From Flavobacteriales bacterium (GTDB lineage: Bacteria > Bacteroidota > Bacteroidia > NS11-12g > UBA955): 64,000 nt of DNA. Shown piece by piece: positions 33,123-43,692 of this stretch. Position 1 is the stretch's first letter. Every line of letters begins with the position of its first letter. Below the pieces are notes generated by a model that had not been told where the DNA came from, did not search any database, and saw nothing but the letters and a program-made list of their open reading frames with translations. The stretch covers positions 9,072 to 73,071 of the forward strand of contig CANFLS010000002.1 in the NCBI GenBank assembly GCA_947447955.1, in the 5' to 3' direction. Both the position numbers and the translations under genes were made by a program.

Positions 33123-36100
33123 TTGCTAACCAATGCAATATCAACTATATTCGAAACTTCCTTGAACATTGCAACAACATATATCAATCAATCAAAAAAG
33201 TGGATAGTGCTTTTGCTCTATCCACTTTTTTGTTCAACAACTTTGTTGGCTCAAAATACCTACGTCAAATCAAATCCATTTCCAACCGATTATTTTATTC
33301 AAAACAAAGGACAATGGAACCACGAAGATTCTAGCATTGGTTATATACTTTGGAATGGCATTCACAACGTGCACCTTTTTAAAAATAAACCCGGATTTAC
33401 TTGGAAATTTACACAAGTAAAAATGCACAAAGAAGATCATGAAAATGAATTTTCTGAAATAGAATCTGAGTATGAAAAAGAACGTGAAAGAGAATTGGAA
33501 GCAGGAAATGGCAAAGAAAAATCTGATGAACTTACCCAAGTTTTTTTAAATGCCAACCCCAATCCTGAAATTGTAGTAGAAAAACCTTCCGATTTTTATT
33601 GGACCTATGGTCCCGAAAAATGGAATTCAATCGGATTTAAACGCATTACCTACAAAAATATTTATCCGTTTATTGATGTGTATTACGAAACCTGCAACAA
33701 CCCAGCTTTGGGAAATTTCAAATACGGTTTCATTTTACACCCCGGTGCAAATCCAAACCACATTCAGATGCAACTAAAAGGGGCCAAATTCAAAAACCTC
33801 AAGGAGAACTCCATTCAATATGTTGCCAAAGAGTTTACCCTGTTTGATTCAGGGTGGAATGCAGTTCAAAACGAAAAAAACATCCCCCTAAAATTAAAAT
33901 TATCAAAAAGTTTATCAAACTTAAAGAACACGCTTCAAATCAATTTAAATTGTCCAAACCCAATTCAATCTGAAACATATATTGATCCTTATGTGAAAGT
34001 AATTGATAGTTTTTTAGATGCGCCTAGAAATTACTACAATTTTGAAAATTTAGTTTCTCAAATGGATTATGATAGCGATGACAATACTTTGGTAATGAGC
34101 CAAAACGAACGTTATCCATTAGTTGCTAAATACAATAAAAATGGAAAACTTCAATGGCTTTTCTCAGGGCAGTTACCATTAATAAATTGGTATTCCTCGG
34201 TGTATACATATTATGCACCTGGTGCGATTATTATGGATAGAAACAATAAAAAATTGTATATAGGACCAGGATTTAAACCATACGGCAACGGCCCACAACT
34301 TATTAGATTAGATACCAAAGGAAATCATGATAATTTCTTATCACAGGCAAGAGCTGACGCACCTGAACTTTGGGATTTAAACATAAATTGCAAACTAAAT
34401 AAAATCGTAGTTTCTGGTGGTGGCATAATGGCCCCTGTAAATATGACTTTAATTAGCAAAGACACTAGTACTTTAAAACCAAATGTTTACCGAATTACTA
34501 GTGATACTAAAAACATTGGACAAGACATAATACGTTCAATCATCGATTTTGAAAATAATTATTTTGTGTTAATTAATTACAGTAAATTAACTATGAAATA
34601 TGATAGTATTGGTCAACCAATTGGCAGTTATTGGAAGGATTACCGCGGACTTATATTAGCAAATGATTCTTTCAATGGGCCAAAATATGAAATTGATATC
34701 AGTCCATATTTCGTGTTTCACGAATACAGCAATTTTACAAAGATGAACACAATTACGAACAGATTCAATGGATTGGCAGTAAATGATAGCTTTGTATTTA
34801 TTTATGATGGCAAAGTATTGATGGTGAATGAAAAGTTTACCGGTAAAATTCGATGTATTGATTCTGTGGCCTGGCATAAAGGTAGGCGTGGGCATTTAGG
34901 GCAGTCCGGCATAGCGGCAGACAACTGCAACCACGTTTTCTTAGGGGGTGACAGTGCCAATGTTTTGGTCTACACCTTTGCAAAAAACAAACTCAAACTT
35001 GATACCACCATCTACCTGTTTAAACCGGCTAAAATCCGAAAAGTGATCGATATCCGACTCAACGAATTAAGCAATCAACTTTTTGTTGCGGGCGATAGTT
35101 TTACCGCCTCCTTTCCCAACCCCTTTGCCAAATCTTGCTCTGTAGTGCGCACTTTTAAGGTCGATACCATACTCACTTCAAAATGCCAAGGAAATTTTAT
35201 TGCCAAAATACCCAATGCCGATTCTATTACTGATTATACCTTTCAGTGGACAAAACTCAATGCCAAAAATCAACCCATTGTGCAACTTTTTACGGGCTCA
35301 AAGCATTTTTACGATACCCTTAAAAATCCCAATCCCGGTGACACCTTTGAACTCCTTGTAGCCAAAAACTATTTCTGCAACGGCGAATACCAAAAGTTCA
35401 TTTTTACCACAGGCAAAATACACAACATTGACGTTTACGATACCCTTTGTGCCGGCGCAATTTATACCAACCGAAAACACAAAATCTATAAAGACTCTAC
35501 GTTTCCCTATACCCTAAGCAACCGTTACAAATGTGATTCTGTGGTTACTTATCACATTCATTTTAAAGATACTTCATCTACCTATCAAAAGGTAGTTCGC
35601 TGCAGGGGTGACTCTTTGAAAGTGGGCAAACACGTGTATACCAACGCCGGCTTTTTTAAAGACACTTTGGTGAACAAATTTGGTTGCGACTCTTTTGTGT
35701 ATTCTAAATTTAGCATTGCCTCTGATACGGTGTATTTGAAGGAGCACGTTTGCAACACCTATATTTACAAACTTGGTGATTCTACTTTTTACAAACCCGG
35801 AAACTACAAAGTGGTGTTTAGGAGTTCCAAAGGTTGTGATTCTATGGTAATTGCCAAAATCACCATGTCGCGCGATACCGCTGTGCGCATCAAACCCACC
35901 ATTTGCCAAGGAGATTCGTTTGTGCTTCGGGGATTAAAGTATGTGCTTTCAGGAAATTACCAAGTCAAATTGCCCCGTTTTGACGGCTGCGATTCAACCA
36001 TCCGCATTGCATTAAGCGTGAAACCAAAATCGTTCATCCAAAACAAAATTTCACTTTGTTTTGGTGACTCATTGATTGTGGGAAAGCACAATTACAAAAA

Positions 36101-36869
36101 AACCGGAACCTATTTTGATACATTAAAGAGTTTGTGGGGATGTGATTCGGTAATCAACTCAACCGTTGTGGTTCACCCAAAATACGACACCACTGCCGTT
36201 TACATACTCTGCGGAGACAGCACTGTGGTGATTAACAACGTTCCTTATTCTAAAAATACCAGTTTCAATTTCAAACACACTTCTTTTGCCGGGTGCGATT
36301 CCATGGTGCGGTACAGAATTTTAAAAACCAAATTGACTCCAGACTTTGCCATTGATTCTAGTCAGGTTCCAGAATTTACGTTCACCAATGCATCACGAGA
36401 TGCCATTAAATTCCTTTGGAGCTTTGATGATGGCTACAAAGATTCAACCCGTGCTAAATTAACTTATCAATTTAACAAAATCGACAACTTGCATCGCATT
36501 TGTTTGCGCGTCACCGACAGCTTGGGCTGCATCGATTCAACTTGCATTGACATCCCTCCATCAAAAATATCTTTTGATTTATACAACAGTTTTAGTCCCA
36601 ATGGCGACGGAATCAACGATCAGTTTGCTGTGATGTCGAAGGGCAAAGATTTGCAATACGATTTGATGATATTCAACCGTTGGGGAGCCAAAGTTTACGA
36701 AGTGGAACATGCTTACACCCGCCAACCCAATTTATATTGGAATGGAAGGGTGATGAACAACGGCGCGGAATGTCCTGCCGCCACTTATTTCGCCCTCTAC
36801 ACCCTCTACCTAAACGGCCCCAACAACCCACCATCAATCATCCACGGAACGGTGATGTTGGTGAGATAA
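33123..36869 (+). CDS. Large T9SS type-B (CHU_C/gliding-associated) C-terminal-domain protein with about six Cys-containing tandem repeats. A cell-surface adhesin-like protein.
   Basis: C-terminus 'FSPNGDGINDQF...IFNRWGAKVYE' is a type-B sorting domain. Residues around 800-1050 carry about six repeats of roughly 45 aa with a conserved 'GCDS(x)V' motif. Confidence 0.6.
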   Translation: MLTNAISTIFETSLNIATTYINQSKKWIVLLLYPLFCSTTLLAQNTYVKSNPFPTDYFIQNKGQWNHEDSSIGYILWNGIHNVHLFKNKPGFTWKFTQVKMHKEDHENEFSEIESEYEKERERELEAGNGKEKSDELTQVFLNANPNPEIVVEKPSDFYWTYGPEKWNSIGFKRITYKNIYPFIDVYYETCNNPALGNFKYGFILHPGANPNHIQMQLKGAKFKNLKENSIQYVAKEFTLFDSGWNAVQNEKNIPLKLKLSKSLSNLKNTLQINLNCPNPIQSETYIDPYVKVIDSFLDAPRNYYNFENLVSQMDYDSDDNTLVMSQNERYPLVAKYNKNGKLQWLFSGQLPLINWYSSVYTYYAPGAIIMDRNNKKLYIGPGFKPYGNGPQLIRLDTKGNHDNFLSQARADAPELWDLNINCKLNKIVVSGGGIMAPVNMTLISKDTSTLKPNVYRITSDTKNIGQDIIRSIIDFENNYFVLINYSKLTMKYDSIGQPIGSYWKDYRGLILANDSFNGPKYEIDISPYFVFHEYSNFTKMNTITNRFNGLAVNDSFVFIYDGKVLMVNEKFTGKIRCIDSVAWHKGRRGHLGQSGIAADNCNHVFLGGDSANVLVYTFAKNKLKLDTTIYLFKPAKIRKVIDIRLNELSNQLFVAGDSFTASFPNPFAKSCSVVRTFKVDTILTSKCQGNFIAKIPNADSITDYTFQWTKLNAKNQPIVQLFTGSKHFYDTLKNPNPGDTFELLVAKNYFCNGEYQKFIFTTGKIHNIDVYDTLCAGAIYTNRKHKIYKDSTFPYTLSNRYKCDSVVTYHIHFKDTSSTYQKVVRCRGDSLKVGKHVYTNAGFFKDTLVNKFGCDSFVYSKFSIASDTVYLKEHVCNTYIYKLGDSTFYKPGNYKVVFRSSKGCDSMVIAKITMSRDTAVRIKPTICQGDSFVLRGLKYVLSGNYQVKLPRFDGCDSTIRIALSVKPKSFIQNKISLCFGDSLIVGKHNYKKTGTYFDTLKSLWGCDSVINSTVVVHPKYDTTAVYILCGDSTVVINNVPYSKNTSFNFKHTSFAGCDSMVRYRILKTKLTPDFAIDSSQVPEFTFTNASRDAIKFLWSFDDGYKDSTRAKLTYQFNKIDNLHRICLRVTDSLGCIDSTCIDIPPSKISFDLYNSFSPNGDGINDQFAVMSKGKDLQYDLMIFNRWGAKVYEVEHAYTRQPNLYWNGRVMNNGAECPAATYFALYTLYLNGPNNPPSIIHGTVMLVR

Positions 36870-36882
36870 AGGTAGGGGGGGA

Positions 36883-37359
36883 TTAGTTTGGTAATTTACG
36901 ATTTGTCCATCCAGATTTCAAAGAATTAACCTTTACAGGATTCAAATTGAATTTATGCAACTCAAATAAATGATTGTATATTAATTCATATGCAAATACT
37001 GCCTTTTCAAATCCATCGGCACCGATATAATCAGGTTGAGGTTTTGACTTTCCAGCTGAATCAAATAAATATCTGGCCCTTCGAGATAGTAATTGTAATT
37101 TCTCATATGCAATACCAACCTCACTCGGAAGTTTTGCTTTGCTTCCATCATTTGAATGGTGTATGATATTCTGAACCGAAACATGGGTATAATAATATCC
37201 ACCATCTGTTTCTTTGATATGAGAATTTACCAAATGCAAGGCTGAATAAAAAAGTGCAGTAACCTGCCAATCCCAAAATTTTTCAGGGGTCAAATTCAAT
37301 GTCTCAACAAGTTTAAGATTCCTTTCCGCTTGACGATAATGAAAAACAGATTTTGGCAT
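36883..37359 (-). CDS. Hypothetical protein
   Basis: ORF immediately following the stop of 37364..37840, with the start taken at 'MPKS'. No motif recognised. Confidence 0.35.
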   Translation of the reverse strand: MPKSVFHYRQAERNLKLVETLNLTPEKFWDWQVTALFYSALHLVNSHIKETDGGYYYTHVSVQNIIHHSNDGSKAKLPSEVGIAYEKLQLLSRRARYLFDSAGKSKPQPDYIGADGFEKAVFAYELIYNHLFELHKFNLNPVKVNSLKSGWTNRKLPN

Positions 37360-37363
37360 AAAG

Positions 37364-37840
37364 TTAAAGTACTTTAAAATGCGCAGGAACAGATAAATTA
37401 TCTGATTGCTCAACAATCATTGGTGATAGGGAAATTCCACTATCTCTGTGTTCAAAATTTGCATCAATGACAGATGCTAAAATAGCTTCCATAGTTTCGT
37501 CATCTCCATCAGCTATTTCGGCCCAAATATACACTTTATTATTCTTTTGACTTAACGCCAATTTATGTGGCTTCGATTTGTGTATTGCCTTTAAATTTTG
37601 AATAAAACTTAAAGCAATTTGAACACCTAGTATTTCATTGTTATTATTTTGATTCACTTTAAGCATTGGCAGATAATTGCCTTTTAAAATTTGTTCCCAA
37701 ATTTCTTTTTTTTGCGTAGGAGCCACACCAGCAGTTATTTCCAACTCTTCTCCTTTAATATATGCAGCAACTTGATCAATAAAATAATCAAAGCCTGTTT
37801 CTTTATTTTTTGTGTTGATGATTTCTGTTTCCATACGCAT
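37364..37840 (-). CDS. Hypothetical protein
   Basis: 158-aa ORF forming a two-gene unit with 36883..37359. Confidence 0.35.
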   Translation of the reverse strand: MRMETEIINTKNKETGFDYFIDQVAAYIKGEELEITAGVAPTQKKEIWEQILKGNYLPMLKVNQNNNNEILGVQIALSFIQNLKAIHKSKPHKLALSQKNNKVYIWAEIADGDDETMEAILASVIDANFEHRDSGISLSPMIVEQSDNLSVPAHFKVL

Positions 37841-37936
37841 TACAAATTTGCAACATTTTTTTTAAAATCAGTGTATTATATAATTCAAAGTGAATACTTT
37901 AACTGTAAAATTATTTGCGAAAAACGCAAAATAACA

Positions 37937-38008
37937 ACCCCATAGCCTCCGCTGCTTCGCAGCTAGCGGGCTTTTTCCTGAATCCCTCTCTCAAACTTCG
38001 TTTGGAAC
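37937..38008. repeat. Copy A (3' half) of a hairpin-containing ~115-bp repeat family
   Basis: 'agcctccgctgcttcgcagctagcgggctttttc...ccctctctcaaacttcgtttgga' is nearly identical to the copies at 43322..43574. Confidence 0.7.
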
Positions 38009-38155
38009 CTTAAATATCCCTCATGATTAATATTGAGCATATTGATGTGTAATATTATATCTAATTACATATAATCTAAATAAAAAATATAAAAATGTAT
38101 GTAATTGCATATAATTAGAATATTTTCACTATTTTTGTATGTAAAAACATATAAT

Positions 38156-38353
38156 ATGAGTGAATTATCAGACTTTGTGAAGACCCGAAGAAAGCATTTA
38201 GGCTTGACGCAGGAAGAGTTTGCAGAAAAAGCAGGAGTTGCACTTACAGTGGTTAGAAAGATTGAACAAGACAAAGAAAACCTTAGTTTGTCAAAAGTCA
38301 ATCAGGTATTAATGATGTTTGGGTATAGTATAGGACCAGTTAAATCCAATTAA
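38156..38353 (+). CDS. XRE-family HTH protein, HipB-like component of a tripartite Hip toxin-antitoxin module
   Basis: 'LGLTQEEFAEKAGVALTVVRKIEQ' HTH. It lies immediately upstream of the HipA-N and HipA-C genes. Confidence 0.65.
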   Translation: MSELSDFVKTRRKHLGLTQEEFAEKAGVALTVVRKIEQDKENLSLSKVNQVLMMFGYSIGPVKSN

Positions 38354-38355
38354 AA

Positions 38356-38691
38356 ATGCGAAAAGCAATCATAAAATACAATAACAACTTGGCCGGAATT
38401 TTAACCGAAGAAGACAATGGAGAGTACCAGTTCGTTTATGATGAAACGTATGCTCAAACTTTTCCCAACCAATTCATTACCTTCCAAATGCCGGTAACAA
38501 CAAGACCATATAGAAGCAAAATACTTTTTCCTTTTTTTGATGGACTAATACCGGAAGGATGGCTTTTAAATATTGCTGCTGAAAGTTGGAAAATCAACAA
38601 AAATGACCGCATGGGATTGCTCCTTGCCTGTTGTCAAAATGCGATAGGTGCGGTAAGTATTCATCCAATTAAAATAGAAACAAATGCATAA
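38356..38691 (+). CDS. HipA N-terminal subdomain protein (HipS-like antitoxin component)
   Basis: 111 aa resembling the HipA N-terminal 'couple_hipA' region. It overlaps the next ORF by 8 nt. Confidence 0.6.
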   Translation: MRKAIIKYNNNLAGILTEEDNGEYQFVYDETYAQTFPNQFITFQMPVTTRPYRSKILFPFFDGLIPEGWLLNIAAESWKINKNDRMGLLLACCQNAIGAVSIHPIKIETNA

Positions 38692-39628
38692 ATGTTTATA
38701 TTGTTATCTGCCCTTAGATAAAACTGAAGTTGATTACCACGCAAAGTGCAGTAAAGCATTCTACGGATCAAAATATGCACCCGTATTACCCTACCAATTA
38801 TCAGAGATGGAAAAATTGGCAACGGAAGCAGCCCAACTATCCATTACCGTTCCGGGAGTACAACCCAAATTATCATTAGGTTGGCTTAAAACACAATTAG
38901 AAGATGGACACATGGGTAGATTAAACATTATGAATGCGTTAGATGGGAACTACATATTAAAACCTCAAAATTCTCTTTATCCTCAAATGCCAGAAAATGA
39001 ACATCTTTCTATGAAACTGGCAGAACTATTTAAAATTGACGTTGTGCCTGTGAGCATGATTCGTTTACAGTCGGGAGAACTCTGTTTTATTACCAAACGA
39101 ATTGATAGAAATTCGGATGGATCAAAAAACCACATGATTGATTTTCTGCAAATTTTAGAACTCTCAGACAAATACAAAGGAACCACAGAAGCATTGGGAA
39201 AAACGATTGGAGATTTATCCGTAAACACATTATTCGACAAACTCCGTTTTTTTGAATCTGTAGTATTCAACTTTATCATTGGAAATAACGATATGCATCT
39301 AAAAAACTATTCCATGTTTATATCTGAAATGGGTTGGGTATTATCGCCATTTTATGACCTACTGAATGTGAAAATAATATTACCCAAAGACAAAGAAGAC
39401 ACGGCTTTGCTACTTGGTGGAAAAAAAGAAAACTTCAAAAAAGGGTATTTTGATCAACTTGCATTGGTGTTGAATTTAAATGAAAAACAAACAAAAGGGG
39501 TATACAAGAAATTACAAAAATGGTTACCGCTCGCAATTCAATTGATTGAAATATCATTTCTAGAAGCTGAACTCCAAGAATCCTATAAAAAATTGATTAC
39601 CGAGCGCGTAAAGCTTTTCACTAAATAA
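38684..39628 (+). CDS. HipA-family Ser/Thr kinase domain protein (HipT-like toxin component)
   Basis: HipA catalytic motif 'GNNDMHLKNYS' and the 'LSPFYDLL' region. It also has an N-terminal Cys-rich stretch 'CLYCYLPLDKTEVDYHAKC'. Confidence 0.7.
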   Translation: MHKCLYCYLPLDKTEVDYHAKCSKAFYGSKYAPVLPYQLSEMEKLATEAAQLSITVPGVQPKLSLGWLKTQLEDGHMGRLNIMNALDGNYILKPQNSLYPQMPENEHLSMKLAELFKIDVVPVSMIRLQSGELCFITKRIDRNSDGSKNHMIDFLQILELSDKYKGTTEALGKTIGDLSVNTLFDKLRFFESVVFNFIIGNNDMHLKNYSMFISEMGWVLSPFYDLLNVKIILPKDKEDTALLLGGKKENFKKGYFDQLALVLNLNEKQTKGVYKKLQKWLPLAIQLIEISFLEAELQESYKKLITERVKLFTK

Positions 39629-39666
39629 CAAAGGCCCTAGATTGCTCTGAGGCCTTTGTTTTATTG
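39629..39666 (+). terminator. Rho-independent terminator after the hip operon
   Basis: 'aaaggccctagattgctctgaggccttt' followed by 'gttttatt'. Confidence 0.5.
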
Positions 39667-39680
39667 ATCGGGATGACTGG

Positions 39681-39780
39681 ATTATCCTCGATAATCTTAG
39701 CAGATTATCTTCGATGATCTCGGTGGGGGTGGTGAATCAACAAAAAAGCCTTCGCTGCTTCGCAGCTTTTGGCTTTCTTC
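39681..39780. repeat. Copy B of the ~115-bp repeat family (diverged)
   Basis: 'tatcctcgataatcttagcagattatcttcgatgatctcggtgggggtggtgaatcaacaaaaaagccttcgctgcttcgcagctttt' aligns with 43437..43540. Confidence 0.6.
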
Positions 39781-40498
39781 AATTGGCTAAATTATCGGCT
39801 GACTTCAACACTATCGCTTTTAGCATTCTCCCAAATAACTCTCAAACGCACATTTTTAGACAAAACGCACAAAAACCAATAAAACCTTACATTTATTATT
39901 AAAACCATGCCAATTCCATAAAGATTGCAAATGTGTGAGGAACGGACCAGAAGGATTGAAAATAACAGTCTCAGGCTGCTGAAATTGAAGGAAGAACAAA
40001 AGCTGACCGATCAGGAAGCGCTGAAGATTGGGATAAAAGTAGTGGCGGGAATTGCTATTTTTAGAGGTCTGGTTTCGCTATTGGATTCAAAGCCTCCCCC
40101 CAAAACCTAATTTTGTCAATTTTCGAAAATAGGAGTATATTTTCCAAAAAGGATACACGGTAAAACACCCCAATTAAAACAAGAGTCATTCGTGAAAACA
40201 TTTGAATATGAAATATTTACATATTCACCTTATCGGAATTCTTAAAATAATTTTGAAGAAATTTGTTTTTTATTTATTTATTTTATATGTTCGTTTTGTG
40301 ATTCCTACAAAATAATACGTTACAAGTTTTGAAATCATTACATTCTTTACCGCAAGGTCGAACTCCTTTACATATTTTTCCTAGCATAGATTTGAATATG
40401 CAAATATTTAAAATCTTTAATATTAGAAATCCCGATTCATGTTTTCAAAATCAACAACATATTGTTTAAAAAACGACAGCCCTTGCCCACAAAAAAAG

Positions 40499-40750
40499 AT
40501 GACATACTCAAACAAAATGCATGGTCTGTTGAATGCCTTTTTTTTAAGTTTGGTTATTTTGAACTTGGTTCTAGCCTCATGCACAAGATGTGACTGTAAA
40601 GAGACATTTGACAGCAACAAAGTGTACCATAAAGGAGACCTTGTTATATATTCAGGGAAATGTTGGAAAGCTGTTACACAAGGTCAGGGAATAGTTCCGG
40701 GGCCTTGGCAGCAAAATGGCAATGATATTTGGACGGAATGCATGAAATAA
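40499..40750 (+). CDS. Small lipoprotein with a CBM5/12-like carbohydrate-binding motif
   Basis: Lipobox 'LVLASC'. 'YHKGDLVIYSGKCWKAVTQGQG..PGPWQQNGNDIWTEC' resembles the CBM5/12 consensus (W...Y..GD.V.Y.G..Y.A......G..P). Confidence 0.4.
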   Translation: MTYSNKMHGLLNAFFLSLVILNLVLASCTRCDCKETFDSNKVYHKGDLVIYSGKCWKAVTQGQGIVPGPWQQNGNDIWTECMK

Positions 40751-40770
40751 AATCTAATAAAAACTGATAT

Positions 40771-41475
40771 ATGAAAATGGTCAAATTTAGAATACTTGGA
40801 TTTATGATTCTTAATTCATATATATCATTTGGAGCTGCACAGGAGCGCAATTCAATTAGCTTGGGTAGCAACTTTGTAACGATTGGAGGGCCTAATAGTT
40901 ATTTTCATACTCCGTCTTTTACTAGTTCCCCTTATGTTGATGCTGGAATTACTGCAGAATATGCCAAGCGCCTCTTTCTTAAATCTGAAACTTCTGCTGT
41001 AAGTGGTGACACTTTTAAAAATAAGAAAATCAACACGCAAAGATGGTTTACAGAAATTGGTGTAAGAATAAATTATACAAGATATGGAATCACTGCCACC
41101 ACCAAAATACCATTCGACCAGGATTTTATTTGTTCAACTAAGAGATTATCTATCAATCTTGTGCAAGCTGTAAACTTTAATCTATCAAAATCGGTCATTA
41201 TTAATATTAGTCTTTTGGAAGGATTTGCGTTTAGTGAGGTTACAGGTGACACCCTTGTATCAAGGAAGTATGGATTAATAGATGAACAAGGCAATTCGAA
41301 TCTTCGAAGTTTTTCTTTAGACATAAATGGGAGTTTATCATTCATAATTATTCCAAAGCTTTACTTTAACATTGGGTATACAAATGGCTTACTGAATATT
41401 ATTAAAATGGGTGAATCAAATTACCCTGTTTCAAAGGAATTTTACCCATATTTAAGAATAACCAAAACATTTTAA
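40771..41475 (+). CDS. Hypothetical outer-membrane beta-barrel-like protein
   Basis: Signal peptide 'MKMVKFRILGFMILNSYISFGAAQ', alternating hydrophobic beta-strand pattern, and a C-terminal aromatic residue ('...RITKTF'). Confidence 0.4.
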   Translation: MKMVKFRILGFMILNSYISFGAAQERNSISLGSNFVTIGGPNSYFHTPSFTSSPYVDAGITAEYAKRLFLKSETSAVSGDTFKNKKINTQRWFTEIGVRINYTRYGITATTKIPFDQDFICSTKRLSINLVQAVNFNLSKSVIINISLLEGFAFSEVTGDTLVSRKYGLIDEQGNSNLRSFSLDINGSLSFIIIPKLYFNIGYTNGLLNIIKMGESNYPVSKEFYPYLRITKTF

Positions 41476-41581
41476 TATAAAAACTGTATTAATCGGAGTT
41501 GTATTCACTCTAACCGCCCTTAAGGTTAATTTTACTAGCGCTCAAGAGATAAGAGCATTTCAAAAAACGAGTATTAAGGAA

Positions 41582-42958
41582 TTGCATAATATTGAAAAAG
41601 GATCAAACGGAAGATACCTTGTTGGGGGGAACTTTAATTCAAAGCTTGATTTTTTATCAATCCACGATAGCTGTACCACTTTCACAAGTGCCTTTTTTGC
41701 AGAGATGGACTCATCTAGTAATAACCTAAAGTATAATAAGGTTTCATCTTCGGGATATATAAGGGTTATAAAAGCTGGACTTTCAGGAAGTTCTGGCTCT
41801 TGGGGGCTAATACTATTCAATAAAAGTTTACAAATTGGGACTAAAACAATATTCATAGGTGAGAAATGGGGAATATCACTTTTAATATTTAGTGATTCAG
41901 TCAGTGATTTACTGATTGATTCAGGAAGTAACTTTGATGTGGTTGAGGCAAGAGTAAACAATGGAAAATGTAATGTACTCTACGGAAAAACTGGAAGTAC
42001 GGCATTTCTTTTTAGCGCAATTAGCATGGATATTAATGCAAAAATATCAAGTACTTCGATTGCAAGAACCGTGTCATATACGGACTTTTTAAGTGCATAT
42101 ATCATAGATGACAATAAGTTTTATCTGATAGGTCGATCAGAAGATGAAATAAAAGTTAATTTTTTTGAGTCGAAAAACAATAATTGGAGGAACGCACTCA
42201 TCGGTCTTCCGGGATTAAGGTTTATCAGCTCATATCACTCTGGAAATTTTGCCAATCTTATTATTCAAAGGGAAGATTCTATAATTCTTGAGTCGATTGA
42301 TTTTGGTAATTCAAGCAATCAGTTAAAGGAGATTTACTTGTTTAAAGGTGATAAGGTAAATATTAAAGCAATCAGCCAAGGAGCATCTCTATATTATATA
42401 GGTACGGCCAATTCTTATGTTAGTGCAGAGAGCGCACCAATATACATTTCTTCTGACTCGAATTCTTTTGTTGCTATAGACTTTGAATCTGATGGATTAA
42501 TTGATACTCTTTTGAGTTTGAATGTAAAAAACATTTTTGACTACTTAATATTCAATGAATATACAATAATATATATGGATGAATTGAATGAGAATACAAT
42601 ATCAGCTGAGAATCAGTTCCTCATTCCTGGTTTGACAACTTCCATTGGATTTTCCTCAATTTCAGGCAAAATTCCTTATACCCAACATTCTAAACCTTTA
42701 CCAACAGCATGTGCAAAGAATAAAAATATTGGAACTGTGATTCCAAATCCATCCAAAGCGAATTTTGGGTTTCAACTTAACGATTGGAAATTGATTGAAC
42801 TCAAATCGATAATTGTCTTTGATATTAATGGCAGAACTGTGCAAAACAGAGTGGAATTAAATAAAATATGGGTCGAAATGCCTGGAACTTACATAATTCA
42901 ATATAAATATTTTGAGTCCAATATTTTATACAGAAAAAAAGTGGTTGTTACCGACTAA
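41582..42958 (+). CDS. Hypothetical protein with a possible T9SS type-A C-terminal sorting domain
   Basis: The C-terminal roughly 80 aa ('IIVFDINGRTVQNRVELNKIWVEMPGTYIIQYKYFES') is CTD-like. The true start and signal peptide are uncertain. Confidence 0.4.
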   Translation: MHNIEKGSNGRYLVGGNFNSKLDFLSIHDSCTTFTSAFFAEMDSSSNNLKYNKVSSSGYIRVIKAGLSGSSGSWGLILFNKSLQIGTKTIFIGEKWGISLLIFSDSVSDLLIDSGSNFDVVEARVNNGKCNVLYGKTGSTAFLFSAISMDINAKISSTSIARTVSYTDFLSAYIIDDNKFYLIGRSEDEIKVNFFESKNNNWRNALIGLPGLRFISSYHSGNFANLIIQREDSIILESIDFGNSSNQLKEIYLFKGDKVNIKAISQGASLYYIGTANSYVSAESAPIYISSDSNSFVAIDFESDGLIDTLLSLNVKNIFDYLIFNEYTIIYMDELNENTISAENQFLIPGLTTSIGFSSISGKIPYTQHSKPLPTACAKNKNIGTVIPNPSKANFGFQLNDWKLIELKSIIVFDINGRTVQNRVELNKIWVEMPGTYIIQYKYFESNILYRKKVVVTD

Positions 42959-43321
42959 GGTCTCCCACAATATCAACTTCGTCACCGTCTTTTCCATTTA
43001 CTTCAATGATGATTTAAATATCATCCATGACCTATGCGGTCTCTGAACGCCACCACATCCGTTGGAACACATGGACTAGTTGGAGAAAACTCATTTGCCC
43101 CAAATTTTCTGTGTGTTTTATCATCCGTTTTTGCAAGGTTTTTCCCTATTTCTCTCAAATCTTGCAATTTTGAACACATATTTCGTTCACATCCTGTACA
43201 TTGGGCTTATATCCTTGCCCTTTTCAAGGGTCGACTAACTAATTTGAACTATGTTTGAAACATCATTAACAAACAAGACTTCCAGTTTCCCGAAAGCTTT
43301 GTCCTGATTGAGTATGGATTG

Positions 43322-43436
43322 CGAGATTATCTCCAATGATCTCGTGGGGGTGGTGGCTCAACCCAAAAGCCTCCGCTGCTTCGCAGCTAGCGGGCTTTTT
43401 CATGCATCCCTCTCTCAAACTTCGTTTGGATTCGGT
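43322..43436. repeat. Copy D1 of the ~115-bp repeat family (tandem with D2)
   Basis: 'agattatctccaatgatctcgtgggggtggtggctcaacccaaaagcctccgctgcttcgcagctagcgggctttttcatgcatccctctctcaaacttcgtttggattcggtc'. Confidence 0.8.
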
Positions 43437-43574
43437 CGAGACTATCCTCGATAATCTTAACAGATTATCTCCAATGATCTCGTGGGGGTGGTGGCTCAAC
43501 CCAAAAGCCTGCGCAGCTTCGCAGCTAGCGGGCTTTTTCATGCATCCCTCTCTCAAACTTCGTTTGGATTCGGT
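43437..43574. repeat. Copy D2 of the repeat family
   Basis: Near-identical to D1, with an additional 5' segment shared with copy B ('tatcctcgataatcttaacagattatctcc'). Confidence 0.8.
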
Positions 43575-43579
43575 CTGCA

Positions 43580-43615: not shown

Positions 43616-43692
43616 TGGTCGGGATGGCGAGATTCGAACTCACGACCCCTTGCACCCCATGCAAGTGCGCTACCGGGCTGCGCTACATCCCG
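43616..43692 (-). tRNA. tRNA-Pro (anticodon GGG)
   Basis: Reverse complement 'CGGGATGTAGCGCAGCCCGGTAGCGCACTTGCATGGGGTGCAAGGGGTCGTGAGTTCGAATCTCGCCATCCCGACCA'. It is similar to E. coli proL, with anticodon loop 'ATGGGGT'. Confidence 0.85.

What the first reader, a model, noticed from the sequence alone, without database searches (positions are those of the whole stretch)
38156..39628. Tripartite HipB-HipS-HipT-like kinase toxin-antitoxin locus
Three overlapping or adjacent + strand genes are present.
- An XRE HTH protein of 66 aa.
- A 111-aa protein corresponding to the HipA N-terminal subdomain.
- A 314-aa HipA-core kinase with the 'GNNDMHLKNYS' catalytic motif.

This split-HipA organisation (hipB-hipS-hipT) is the recently described three-component variant in which the N-subdomain protein is the antitoxin. 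The kinase here also has an N-terminal Cys-x2-Cys...His...Cys cluster that I do not associate with characterised HipT. The locus ends with a terminator and is bracketed by copies of a repeat element (37937..38008 and 39681..39780).
Basis: partly seen in the sequence, partly recalled or inferred. Interest (0 to 1): 0.5.

Follow-up and report, generated by a model that had tools for sequence, protein, structure and literature searches.

The report
HipBST kinase toxin-antitoxin operon
This is an intact three-gene HipB-HipS-HipT kinase toxin-antitoxin cassette of a type already known to be common in Bacteroidota, ordinary except that its kinase keeps a probable zinc-binding knuckle that the two experimentally studied HipT kinases have lost.

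Summary
Three coupled + strand genes encode:
- a 65-aa HipB-type HTH protein (38156-38353);
- a 111-aa HipS, equivalent to HipA N-subdomain 1 (38356-38691);
- a 314-aa HipT core kinase with intact catalytic residues (38684-39628).

A strong terminator hairpin follows.

**Closest relatives.** The nearest solved structures are Legionella pneumophila HipS/HipT (profile E 3.5e-46; model TM 0.90). E. coli O127 HipBST comes next.

**Conservation.** The split arrangement holds in 80 of 80 related genomic loci, almost all Bacteroidota. Flanking genes are never shared, so this is a self-contained mobile cassette.

**Regulation.** Upstream of hipB lie three 18-bp inverted-repeat sites (T[A/G]TAT[G/C]-N6-CATATA), 40 bp apart. 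They are the only such sites in the 64-kb window and recur upstream of hipB in relatives. This parallels the three HipB operators shown experimentally in Legionella.

**Cys/His cluster.** C4, C7, H19 and C22 are real and about as conserved as the catalytic residues. 116 of 125 diverse clade sequences have all four. Both characterised HipTs keep only the first Cys. It is probably a zinc knuckle in the "mini-domain of unknown significance".

**Verdict.** A new member of a known kind, with modest interest.

The parts
38056..38073 (+). Operator-like site O1 (distal): TATATC-TAATTA-CATATA, an 18 bp inverted repeat with 6-nt arms
   Evidence: Direct-repeat family D1 with 40-bp spacing. The regex T[AG]TA[CT]N7CATA[CT]A has only 3 sites in the 64-kb window, and this is one. 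The motif recurs upstream of hipB in 69 of 70 related loci.
38096..38113 (+). Operator-like site O2: TGTATG-TAATTG-CATATA
   Evidence: Lies 40 bp from O1.
38136..38153 (+). Operator-like site O3 (proximal): TGTATG-TAAAAA-CATATA. It ends 2 nt before the hipB ATG and overlaps a Bacteroidota-type -7 box TAnnTTTG (TATTTTTG, 38130-38137).
   Evidence: In related loci the last site most often abuts the start codon. The promoter assignment is inference from the published Bacteroidota consensus, recalled from my own knowledge.
38156..38353 (+). hipB: 65-aa Xre/Cro-C1 HTH protein, the predicted operator-binding autorepressor
   Evidence: PF01381 at 1.4e-10. TIGR03070 couple_hipB at 74.4 bits, above its 71.65 cutoff. 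Present upstream of hipS in 77 of 80 related loci; the other 3 are cut by contig ends.
38356..38691 (+). hipS: 111-aa homologue of HipA N-subdomain 1, the predicted antitoxin. Carries the E67-G68-W69 wedge motif.
   Evidence: PF13657 at 9e-22 and TIGR03071 at 1.5e-26. PDB HipS(Lp) at 4.6e-17, HI_0666 at 4.9e-11, HipS(Ec O127) at 1.2e-10. PEGW is present in 80 of 80 related loci.
38684..39628 (+). hipT: 314-aa HipA-core Ser/Thr kinase, the predicted toxin
   Evidence: PF07804 at 4.3e-41. PDB HipT(Lp) at 8e-39, or 3.5e-46 over residues 1-311 with a profile; HipT(Ec O127) at about 1e-15 to 1e-19. AF2 model has pLDDT 92.5 and matches 7wcf/7vkc at TM 0.90/0.89.
38693..38749 (+). N-terminal mini-domain Cys2-His-Cys cluster (C4, C7, H19, C22), a predicted zinc knuckle
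   Evidence: Present in 120 of 120 close homologues and 80 of 80 genomic loci. Found in 116 of 125 diverse clade sequences, and where lost, positions 2-4 go together. Nearly invariant across 99 diverse sequences, alongside the catalytic residues. In the AF2 model residues 1-40 have pLDDT 91-95, with bridges at residues 3 and 10 and a helix at 20-27.
38840..38869 (+). Gly-rich (P-) loop region S53-I-T55-V-P57-G-V-Q-P-K62. T55 aligns with the autophosphorylated Ser54 of HipT(Lp) and Ser57 of HipT(Ec).
   Evidence: Alignments. The T[IV][TP] loop group is described in PMC10627512.
39281..39313 (+). Catalytic motif GNNDMHLKNYS (D203 catalytic). Mg-binding D225 is at 39356-39358 and RxDR (R139-D141-R142) is at 39098-39109.
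   Evidence: These residues are invariant or nearly invariant in alignments A2 and A3. They align with HipT(Lp) D197/D219 and HipT(Ec) D210/D233.
39627..39667 (+). Intrinsic terminator hairpin plus U-tract directly after the hipT stop codon
   Evidence: Inverted repeat I22. Folds at -18.1 kcal/mol, z = -4.8. A weak Rfam match covers only the terminator part of CsrC.
37935..38007 (+). 5'-truncated copy (element positions 36-108) of a roughly 115-bp intergenic repeat with a terminator-like hairpin core. This is flanking context, not shown to belong to the cassette.
39702..39781 (+). 3'-diverged copy (element positions 1-79) of the same repeat. Its first 20 nt or so are duplicated again at 39680-39697.
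   Evidence: (I17, D2).

Best explanation
The locus is a functional, self-contained tripartite HipBST toxin-antitoxin operon of the Legionella-related subclade, sitting in an uncultured Bacteroidota genome.

**Proposed mechanism**
- HipT is a HipA-type Ser/Thr kinase. When free, it arrests growth by phosphorylating an essential cellular target. By analogy this is a translation factor such as an aminoacyl-tRNA synthetase, but the target in this subclade is unknown.
- HipS is the separately encoded equivalent of HipA N-subdomain 1. It binds the kinase N-lobe and blocks it by inserting its Glu-Gly-Trp wedge (E67/W69) next to the Gly-rich loop.
- HipB is a small HTH dimer that represses the operon by occupying three phased 18-bp inverted repeats. 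These overlap the promoter and abut the start codon. HipB also joins the HipS-HipT complex.
- Thr55 beside the Gly-rich loop is a likely autophosphorylation site.

**What is shown here**
- Gene anatomy, homology and intact motifs.
- Conservation of the split arrangement.
- Conservation and phasing of the operator-like sites.
- Conservation of the four metal-ligand residues.

**What is inferred**
- Toxicity, neutralisation by HipS and DNA binding by HipB.
- Zinc binding, autophosphorylation and the target.
For: **Domains and structures**
- Domain assignments are above the curated cutoffs.
- The best solved relatives are HipT(Lp)/HipS(Lp), then HipBST(Ec O127).
- The AF2 model (pLDDT 92.5) superposes on free HipT(Lp) at TM 0.90, RMSD 2.2 Å over 319 columns.

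**Kinase and antitoxin motifs**
- K62, R139/D141/R142, D203/H205/K207/N208 and D225 are invariant or nearly invariant in A2 and A3.
- HipS PEGW is present in 80 of 80 loci.

**Operon conservation**
- hipS lies immediately upstream of hipT in 80 of 80 loci, and hipB is present in 77 of 80.
- hipS and hipT overlap by 8 or 11 nt in 70 of 74 loci.
- No flanking gene of the window recurs next to the cassette elsewhere, apart from one hit for the 1248-aa neighbour.

**Operators**
- The window has 3 sites in 64 kb, all upstream of hipB.
- The 70 related loci have 166 sites in the 150 bp upstream of hipB, with 40-bp spacing in 88 of 97 intervals.
- Background is 10 sites in 535 kb, both strands.

**Experimental precedent**
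- HipT(Lp) is toxic, HipS(Lp) neutralises it, and HipB(Lp) binds three evenly spaced 18-nt operators with 6-nt inverted repeats (PMC10653801).
- HipS(Ec) W65 is essential for neutralisation (PMC10627512).
Against: - No experiment exists on this locus or on any Bacteroidota member that I could find.
- The target of the nearest characterised relative, HipT(Lp), is unknown and is not TrpS or GltX (PMC10653801). The target step is therefore the weakest.
- The position equivalent to the phospho-serine is Ala in about a quarter of clade representatives (32 of 125). Autophosphorylation control is therefore not universal in the clade.
- HipS(Lp) lacks the Trp wedge, so the neutralisation details differ even between the two characterised systems.
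- Zinc binding rests on the sequence pattern and model secondary structure only. I could not obtain model coordinates to measure ligand geometry.
Confidence: 0.87

Rival explanations
1. The cassette's main biological role is anti-phage abortive infection, not persistence or stabilisation of mobile DNA. Phage infection would release the kinase, for example through antitoxin loss or transcription shut-off, and stop translation before the phage completes its cycle. This concerns the role, not the molecular anatomy, and can coexist with the best explanation.
For: - HipT and HipS give weak hits to the PADLOC candidate defence system PDC-M03 (7e-08 and 6e-06).
- A HipA-family kinase system (DS-6/HipAD) has been validated as phage defence (PMC13092281).
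- The cassette sits in non-conserved neighbourhoods, which suggests mobility.
Against: - The PADLOC hits are partial and weak.
- DS-6 has a different partner protein.
- No recognised defence genes were found next to the locus.
- No phage assay exists for any HipBST.
Confidence: 0.25
2. The locus is a canonical bipartite hipBA whose hipA was broken in two by a frameshift or nonsense mutation. On this reading it is a decaying pseudogene, not a true three-component system.
For: - HipS plus HipT together are collinear with HipA-like single-chain proteins.
- Fused 440-470-aa forms of the same clade exist.
Against: - The split is conserved in 80 of 80 loci from different families.
- The hipS stop and hipT start overlap in a conserved way, by 8 or 11 nt.
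- Both ORFs are full length and highly conserved.
- HipT starts with its own conserved mini-domain at residue 1.
Confidence: 0.01
3. HipB, not HipS, is the neutralising antitoxin, as in HipBA. HipS would then be an accessory or activating subunit of the kinase.
For: - HipB belongs to the 'couple_hipB / Y4mF family antitoxin' model.
- In HipBA systems HipB is the antitoxin.
Against: - In both characterised HipBST systems HipS neutralises HipT and HipB does not (PMC6581861, PMC10653801, PMC9325769).
- This HipS keeps the Trp wedge that is essential in E. coli O127.
- The 65-aa HipB is barely more than an HTH domain.
Confidence: 0.05

Closest known systems
Legionella pneumophila HipBST (Lpg2368-2370; PDB 7vkb, 7vkc, 7wcf, 8ezr)
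   Same: - Same three-gene order with tightly coupled genes.
- Short HipB of about 65-72 aa, and HipS of about 102-111 aa.
- Full-length collinear HipT, including the N-terminal mini-domain (profile E 3.5e-46, model TM 0.90).
- RxDR motif, catalytic Asp and Mg-binding Asp.
- Three evenly spaced 18-nt operators with 6-nt inverted-repeat arms, the proximal one at the promoter.
- The subclade is reported as widespread in the FCB superphylum, which includes Bacteroidota (PMC10653801).
   Different: - Only 31-34% identity to HipT(Lp) in the structure-based alignments.
- This HipT has the Cys2-His-Cys cluster where HipT(Lp) has C-T-S-G.
- The Gly-loop motif is T-V-P, not S-V-Q.
- This HipS has the Trp wedge (PEGW) where HipS(Lp) has Ile/Met.
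- Operator spacing is 40 bp start to start (22-bp gaps), against 53-bp gaps in Legionella, and the operator sequence differs.
- The proximal operator abuts the start codon.
E. coli O127:H6 HipBST (PDB 7ab3-7ab5)
   Same: - Tripartite architecture.
- HipS Glu-Gly-Trp wedge.
- Ser/Thr at the first phospho-position beside the Gly-rich loop.
- GNNDMHL(K/R)N catalytic motif.
- HipT has an N-terminal mini-domain (residues 1-41, 'of unknown significance', PMC10627512).
   Different: - Much more distant (E about 1e-15 to 1e-19; 20-22% identity in the structural alignment).
- HipT(Ec) has a second phospho-serine (S-I-S), whereas this one has Pro there.
- The HipT(Ec) mini-domain has C-L-S-G at the four ligand positions.
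- HipT(Ec) targets TrpS. The target here is unknown.
Canonical HipBA (E. coli K-12, Shewanella oneidensis)
   Same: - Same kinase fold and catalytic residues.
- HipB HTH autorepressor with multiple operators.
- The HipS sequence matches HipA residues 3-105.
   Different: - HipA is one 440-aa chain and HipB is the antitoxin.
- Here the N-subdomain is a separate protein predicted to be the antitoxin.
- The operator motif differs from TATCC-N8-GGATA (motif recalled from my own knowledge).
Fused single-chain members of the same clade (for example P0173, P0178, P0190, P0200, P0246, P0269)
   Same: They contain Couple_hipA, then the CxxC...HxxC knuckle at about residues 130-155, then HipA_C. The knuckle is therefore part of the clade's ancestral architecture.
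   Different: They are one polypeptide of 440-470 aa. Their partner genes and regulation were not examined.

Membership tests
HipBST tripartite toxin-antitoxin | Three co-oriented, tightly coupled genes in the order hipB-hipS-hipT | tested here: met
   There is a 2-nt gap between hipB and hipS and an 8-nt overlap between hipS and hipT. The same order holds in 77-80 of 80 related loci. The overlap is 8 or 11 nt in 70 of 74 loci.
HipBST tripartite toxin-antitoxin | HipB is a small Xre/Cro-type HTH protein | tested here: met
   PF01381 at 1.4e-10. TIGR03070 couple_hipB at 74.4 bits, above the 71.65 cutoff.
HipBST tripartite toxin-antitoxin | HipS is a protein of about 100 aa homologous to HipA N-subdomain 1 | tested here: met
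   PF13657 at 9e-22 and TIGR03071 at 1.5e-26. PDB HipS(Lp) at 4.6e-17, HipS(Ec) at 1.2e-10, and HipA residues 3-105 at 4e-3.
HipBST tripartite toxin-antitoxin | HipT is a HipA core kinase lacking N-subdomain 1, with a Gly-rich loop, a catalytic motif and a Mg-binding Asp | tested here: met
   PF07804 covers residues 55-277. G58-V-Q-P-K62, D203/H205/K207/N208 and D225 are all conserved. The fold matches HipT(Lp) at TM 0.90. The activation loop was not checked residue by residue.
HipBST tripartite toxin-antitoxin | [quoted passage not shown] | tested here: inconclusive
   T55 aligns with Ser54(Lp) and Ser57(Ec), so a phosphorylatable residue is present. Phosphorylation itself cannot be tested here. 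The position is Ala in 32 of 125 clade sequences.
HipBST tripartite toxin-antitoxin | HipT is toxic and is neutralised by HipS, not by HipB | not testable with these tools
   Inferred from homology and from the conserved HipS E67-G68-W69 wedge. Needs expression assays.
HipBST tripartite toxin-antitoxin | HipB autoregulates through operators in the promoter | tested here: inconclusive
   Three 18-bp inverted repeats lie 40 bp apart. They are unique in the window and conserved in relatives: 166 sites in 70 loci against 10 per 535 kb of background. Binding itself was not tested.
Legionella-type HipBST subclade (PMC10653801) | Closer to HipBST(Lp) than to HipBST(Ec) in sequence and structure | tested here: met
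   HipT scores 137 bits against Lp and 60 bits against Ec. HipS scores 65.5 against 44.9 bits. Foldseek gives 1e-26 against 4e-20. No phylogenetic tree was built.
Legionella-type HipBST subclade (PMC10653801) | S-Psi-Q Gly-loop motif, and Ile/Met rather than Trp at the HipS wedge | tested here: not met
   Here the motifs are T-V-P and PEGW. These are features of the Legionella proteins and are not necessarily definitions of the subclade.
Canonical bipartite HipBA | A single HipA polypeptide of about 440 aa containing N-subdomain 1 | tested here: not met
   Two separate conserved ORFs are present here and in 80 of 80 relatives.
Zinc knuckle / treble-clef-like zinc site | Four Cys/His ligands arranged as CxxC plus a second pair (HxxC) at the start of a helix | tested here: met
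   The pattern is C4-x2-C7-x11-H19-x2-C22. In the AF2 model beta-bridges sit at residues 3 and 10 and a helix spans 20-27, with pLDDT 91-95. The ligands are nearly invariant across 99 diverse sequences.
Zinc knuckle / treble-clef-like zinc site | Metal actually bound, with tetrahedral ligand geometry | not testable with these tools
Indirect support comes from ligand positions 2-4 being lost together in the exceptions.
PADLOC candidate defence system PDC-M03 | Full-length matches to both PDC-M03A and PDC-M03B | tested here: inconclusive
   Only partial, weak matches were found. HipT residues 106-225 score 7e-08 and HipS residues 14-62 score 6e-06.

The most novel reading that the evidence does not exclude
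The Cys2-His-Cys knuckle may be more than a structural staple. It could be a zinc- or redox-sensitive switch. Oxidation or metal loss would unfold the mini-domain that packs against the kinase N-lobe next to the HipS interface. That would change HipS binding or Gly-rich-loop conformation and so couple toxin activation to oxidative or metal stress. On this reading the two experimentally studied HipTs (E. coli O127 and Legionella) are degenerate exceptions that lost this control layer. The 'mini-domain of unknown significance' would then have a defined function in most of the family.
Probability: 0.12. Interest if true: 0.6.

Novelty: new member of a known kind. Interest (0 to 1): 0.3.

Why it matters
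The locus adds little as a locus. HipBST systems of the Legionella-related subclade were already reported as widespread in the FCB superphylum, which includes Bacteroidota.

Two by-products are useful to people working on Hip kinases.

**1. The mini-domain looks like a zinc knuckle.**
- The N-terminal HipT mini-domain is called 'of unknown significance' in the E. coli structure paper.
- In about 93% of diverse clade representatives it carries a Cys2-His-Cys cluster conserved as strongly as the catalytic residues.
- The cluster is also present in fused single-chain forms.
- Both characterised HipTs have lost three of the four ligands.
- This gives a concrete, cheap hypothesis to test: metal content and ligand mutants. 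It also suggests the model systems are atypical for the family.

**2. A phased operator triplet is conserved across families.**
- A conserved triplet of 18-bp operators, 40 bp apart, is present upstream of hipB in relatives from many Bacteroidota families (38 of 70 loci have all three).
- This extends the three-operator architecture shown for Legionella HipB.

Tried and rejected
- **First structure prediction.** A shallow alignment of 20 sequences at 75% identity or more gave an unusable model (pLDDT 42). A 99-sequence alignment that included 50%-cluster representatives solved this (pLDDT 92.5).
- **Ligand distances.** I could not measure Cys/His distances because model coordinates are not exposed to the Python sandbox.
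- **Literature on a metal site.** I searched the four main HipBST papers and the library for any mention of zinc or cysteine in HipT/HipA. I found none. This is absence in the searched library, not proof of novelty.
- **Gerdes et al. 2021 supplement.** I looked for Bacteroidota HipT entries and for the CLYCY/VPGVQPK motifs and found nothing. The stored file is truncated.
- **Strict promoter search.** A strict TAnnTTTG box 6 nt before the proximal operator was found in only 5 of 69 relatives. Part of the shortfall arises because the strict operator regex misses degenerate sites. The promoter assignment therefore stays an inference.
- **Repeat element as RNA.** Rfam gave no family for the flanking repeat. 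Its full-length fold is not better than shuffles (z = -0.8), so I treat it as a terminator-containing intergenic repeat and not as a structured RNA.
- **Broken hipA pseudogene.** Considered and rejected.
- **Neighbouring ORFs.** I checked the two upstream 158-aa ORFs and the downstream ORFs for association with the cassette. There is none.
- **Composition.** No compositional anomaly is confined to the cassette.
Full report
**Observation**

- hipS 38356-38691 is 111 aa.
- hipT 38684-39628 is 314 aa.
- hipB and hipS are separated by 2 nt. hipS and hipT overlap by 8 nt (ATGCATAA).

Profile searches put each protein above curated thresholds.
- HipB: PF01381 HTH_3 at 1.4e-10, and TIGR03070 couple_hipB at 74.4 bits against a 71.65 cutoff.
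- HipS: PF13657 Couple_hipA at 9e-22, and TIGR03071 at 1.5e-26.
- HipT: PF07804 HipA_C at 4.3e-41.

The motif GNNDMHLKNYS is residues 200-210.

A hairpin directly after the stop codon (39627-39660) folds at -18.1 kcal/mol with z = -4.8, and UUUUAUU follows it. This is a convincing intrinsic terminator, although the simple consensus scan missed it.

**Relation to solved systems**

- HipT is most similar to Legionella pneumophila HipT. A single-sequence search gives E 8e-39 against 7vkb/8ezr. A family profile aligns residues 1-311 at 3.5e-46.
- E. coli O127:H6 HipT comes next at about 1e-15 to 1e-19, and canonical HipA is far behind.
- HipS behaves the same way: HipS(Lp) 4.6e-17, H. influenzae HI_0666 4.9e-11, HipS(Ec) 1.2e-10, HipA residues 3-105 at 4e-3.
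- A first AlphaFold run on a shallow alignment failed (pLDDT 42).
- With 99 diverse sequences the model reached pLDDT 92.5 and pTM 0.91. It superposes on free HipT(Lp), entries 7wcf and 7vkc, at TM 0.90 and 0.89, with RMSD 2.2 Å for 7wcf. It superposes on HipT(Ec) at TM about 0.82.

**Kinase and antitoxin features**

- Residues known to matter in the characterised systems are present and conserved. These are K62 in the G-V-Q-P-K loop, R139-x-D141-R142 (RxDR), D203/H205/K207/N208, and D225 for Mg binding. They align with HipT(Lp) D197/D219 and HipT(Ec) D210/D233.
- Thr55 aligns with the autophosphorylated Ser54(Lp) and Ser57(Ec). Pro57 occupies the second E. coli site. This places the protein in the T[IV][TP] loop group described in PMC10627512.
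- That position is Ala in 32 of 125 clade sequences, so this control is not universal in the clade.
- HipS carries E67-G68-W69. This is equivalent to HipS(Ec) E63/W65, the Trp wedge essential for neutralisation (PMC10627512). HipS(Lp) has Ile/Met at that position. PEGW is present in 80 of 80 related loci.

**Conservation and mobility**

- A scan of GTDB species representatives found more than 573 genomes with a relative. The 80 best hits are almost all Bacteroidota from many families; one is a Dehalococcoidales MAG.
- hipS sits directly upstream of hipT in 80 of 80 loci. hipB is present in 77 of 80, and the other three are cut by contig ends.
- The hipS stop overlaps the hipT start by 8 or 11 nt in 70 of 74 loci. 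This rules out a broken hipA pseudogene.
- None of the window's neighbouring ORFs recurs beside the cassette in those loci, apart from one hit for the 1248-aa neighbour.
- GC content is not anomalous for the cassette alone.
- The three genes therefore form an autonomous, horizontally mobile module, which is typical of toxin-antitoxin systems.
- The identical protein occurs on several contigs from uncultured MAGs.

**Regulation**

- Upstream of hipB are three copies of an 18-bp inverted repeat with 6-nt arms, T[A/G]TAT[G/C]-N6-CATATA.
- They lie at 38056, 38096 and 38136, exactly 40 bp apart (family D1).
- A regular expression for the motif finds only these three sites in the whole 64-kb window.
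- In 70 related loci it finds 166 sites in the 150 bp upstream of hipB. Of those loci, 38 have three sites, and 88 of 97 intervals are 40 bp.
- Background is 10 sites in 535 kb on both strands.
- The proximal site ends 2 nt before the ATG. It overlaps a TATTTTTG box (38130-38137) that fits the Bacteroidota -7 consensus TAnnTTTG. That promoter reading is an inference.
- The arrangement closely parallels what Lin et al. showed experimentally for Legionella. There, three evenly spaced 18-nt operators with 6-nt inverted repeats are bound by HipB, and the proximal one overlaps the promoter (PMC10653801). Here the gaps are 22 bp where Legionella has 53 bp, and the sequence differs.
- The data also show that the 82-aa hipB call in public records (TTG at 38105) is probably over-extended. 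It would bury O2 and O3 inside coding sequence.

**The Cys/His cluster**

- C4-x2-C7-x11-H19-x2-C22 is present in all 120 closest database homologues and in all 80 genomic loci.
- I then examined representatives of 50%-identity clusters from an exhaustive search, which gave 4351 hits at E<1e-3.
- Of 125 sequences with a complete N-terminus, 116 have C-C-H-C. One more, P0211, is a window artefact of the extraction.
- The real exceptions keep the first Cys and lose the other three together: C-T-S-G, C-T-N-A, C-S-T-S and C-T-S-A.
- HipT(Lp) is C-T-S-G, and HipT(Ec O127) is C-L-S-G (MANCRILLTPLNERDEQRGYSTQG, verified against 7ab3).
- In the 99-sequence alignment C4 is invariant. C7, H19 and C22 are at least 90% conserved, in the same class as the catalytic residues.
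- In the confident model residues 1-40 have pLDDT 91-95. C4 and C7 flank a tight hairpin with bridges at residues 3 and 10. H19 and C22 open a helix at 20-27. That is the layout of a zinc knuckle or treble-clef site.
- Fused 440-470-aa single-chain relatives carry Couple_hipA, then the same knuckle at about residue 130-155, then HipA_C. The knuckle therefore belongs to the clade's basic architecture.
[quoted passage not shown] It also notes that the region is disordered in the HipS-HipT(Lp) complex but ordered in free HipT(Lp) (PMC10627512).
- Residues 4-28 of Lpg2370 had earlier been aligned to the RING ligase FANCL (PMC9325769). This fits a degenerate zinc finger.
- None of the four HipBST papers mentions zinc or cysteine, and library searches found nothing relevant.
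- Zinc binding itself remains an inference.

**Flanking repeats**

- They belong to a roughly 115-bp element with four + strand copies in the window.
- The copy at 37935-38007 is 5'-truncated and the copy at 39702-39781 is 3'-diverged. Two full tandem copies at 43324-43575 lie next to tRNA-Pro(GGG) at 43616-43692.
- The core is a GC-rich hairpin flanked by A and T runs, which looks like a bidirectional terminator.
- The full element does not fold better than shuffled sequence, and no Rfam family matches it.
- The two flanking copies are not halves of one interrupted element, so they do not mark an insertion. I treat them as context.

**Mechanism and verdict**

- The best-supported explanation is a working HipBST module (confidence about 0.87).
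- HipT is a growth-arresting kinase. HipS is its wedge-type protein antitoxin. HipB represses through three phased operators.
- The target is unknown. The nearest characterised relative does not act through TrpS or GltX (PMC10653801).
- An anti-phage role is possible but unsupported beyond weak PADLOC hits to the candidate system PDC-M03 and precedent for other HipA-family kinases.
- The locus is a new member of a known kind.
- The only points a specialist might find new are the near-universal putative zinc knuckle, which both model HipTs lack, and the 40-bp-phased operator triplet conserved across Bacteroidota relatives.

Noticed in passing
window 43324-43445, 43462-43575, 37935-38007, 39702-39781; tRNA-Pro(GGG) 43616-43692 (-): A roughly 115-bp intergenic repeat with a terminator-like hairpin core (CGCTGCTTCGCAGC) has four + strand copies in the window. 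Two full tandem copies lie directly downstream of a tRNA-Pro gene. It has no Rfam family and no better-than-shuffle fold.
   Followed up: partly
window 38105-38353: Public gene calls on identical contigs annotate hipB as 82 aa from a TTG at 38105. The conserved operators O2 and O3 would lie inside that extension, and homologous HipBs start at the ATG at 38156, so the 82-aa call is probably an over-extension.
   Followed up: yes
window 36883-37359 (-) and 37364-37840 (-): Two adjacent 158-aa ORFs lie 4 nt apart, divergent from hipB. They have no Pfam, NCBIfam, PHROG or PADLOC hits, are not paralogues of each other, and are not found next to hipBST in 80 related loci. They may be an uncharacterised two-gene module.
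   Followed up: partly
window ~37000-43000: A stretch of lower G+C (0.32-0.35) lies between flanks of about 0.40-0.46 and ends at tRNA-Pro. It contains hipBST, several ORFs without family assignment and the repeats. It may be an island, but I did not look for an integrase.
   Followed up: no
P0173, P0178, P0190, P0196, P0200, P0204, P0206, P0209, P0212, P0220, P0246, P0268, P0269 (representative library): These 440-470-aa proteins carry the CxxC...HxxC knuckle at about residue 130-155, upstream of the HipT-like part. Pfam scans of five of them (P0173, P0178, P0190, P0200, P0246, P0269 were scanned) show Couple_hipA at the N-terminus and HipA_C from about residue 180-207, so they are single-chain HipS-knuckle-HipT fusions. 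The characterised E. coli K-12 HipA lacks such a knuckle (from my own knowledge).
   Followed up: partly
P0232 (632 aa), P0261 (629 aa): These HipT-like proteins have the knuckle and kinase in the N-terminal 300 aa or so, plus a C-terminal extension of about 300 aa with no confident Pfam assignment.
   Followed up: no
L021 (Dehalococcoidales MAG contig JAQUQL010000050.1): A complete hipBST is 55% identical in HipT and has the same operator motif upstream, yet sits on a contig binned to Chloroflexota. This is either cross-phylum transfer or a binning error.
   Followed up: no
HipT position 55 across the clade: The residue aligned with the autophosphorylated serine of characterised HipTs is Ala in 32 of 125 diverse clade sequences. 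Many family members therefore cannot use that phospho-switch.
   Followed up: partly
window 33123-36869 (+): The upstream neighbour is a 1248-aa protein with DUF7948, PKD-like and CHU_C (type IX secretion sorting) domains. This supports a Bacteroidota origin for the window.
   Followed up: no
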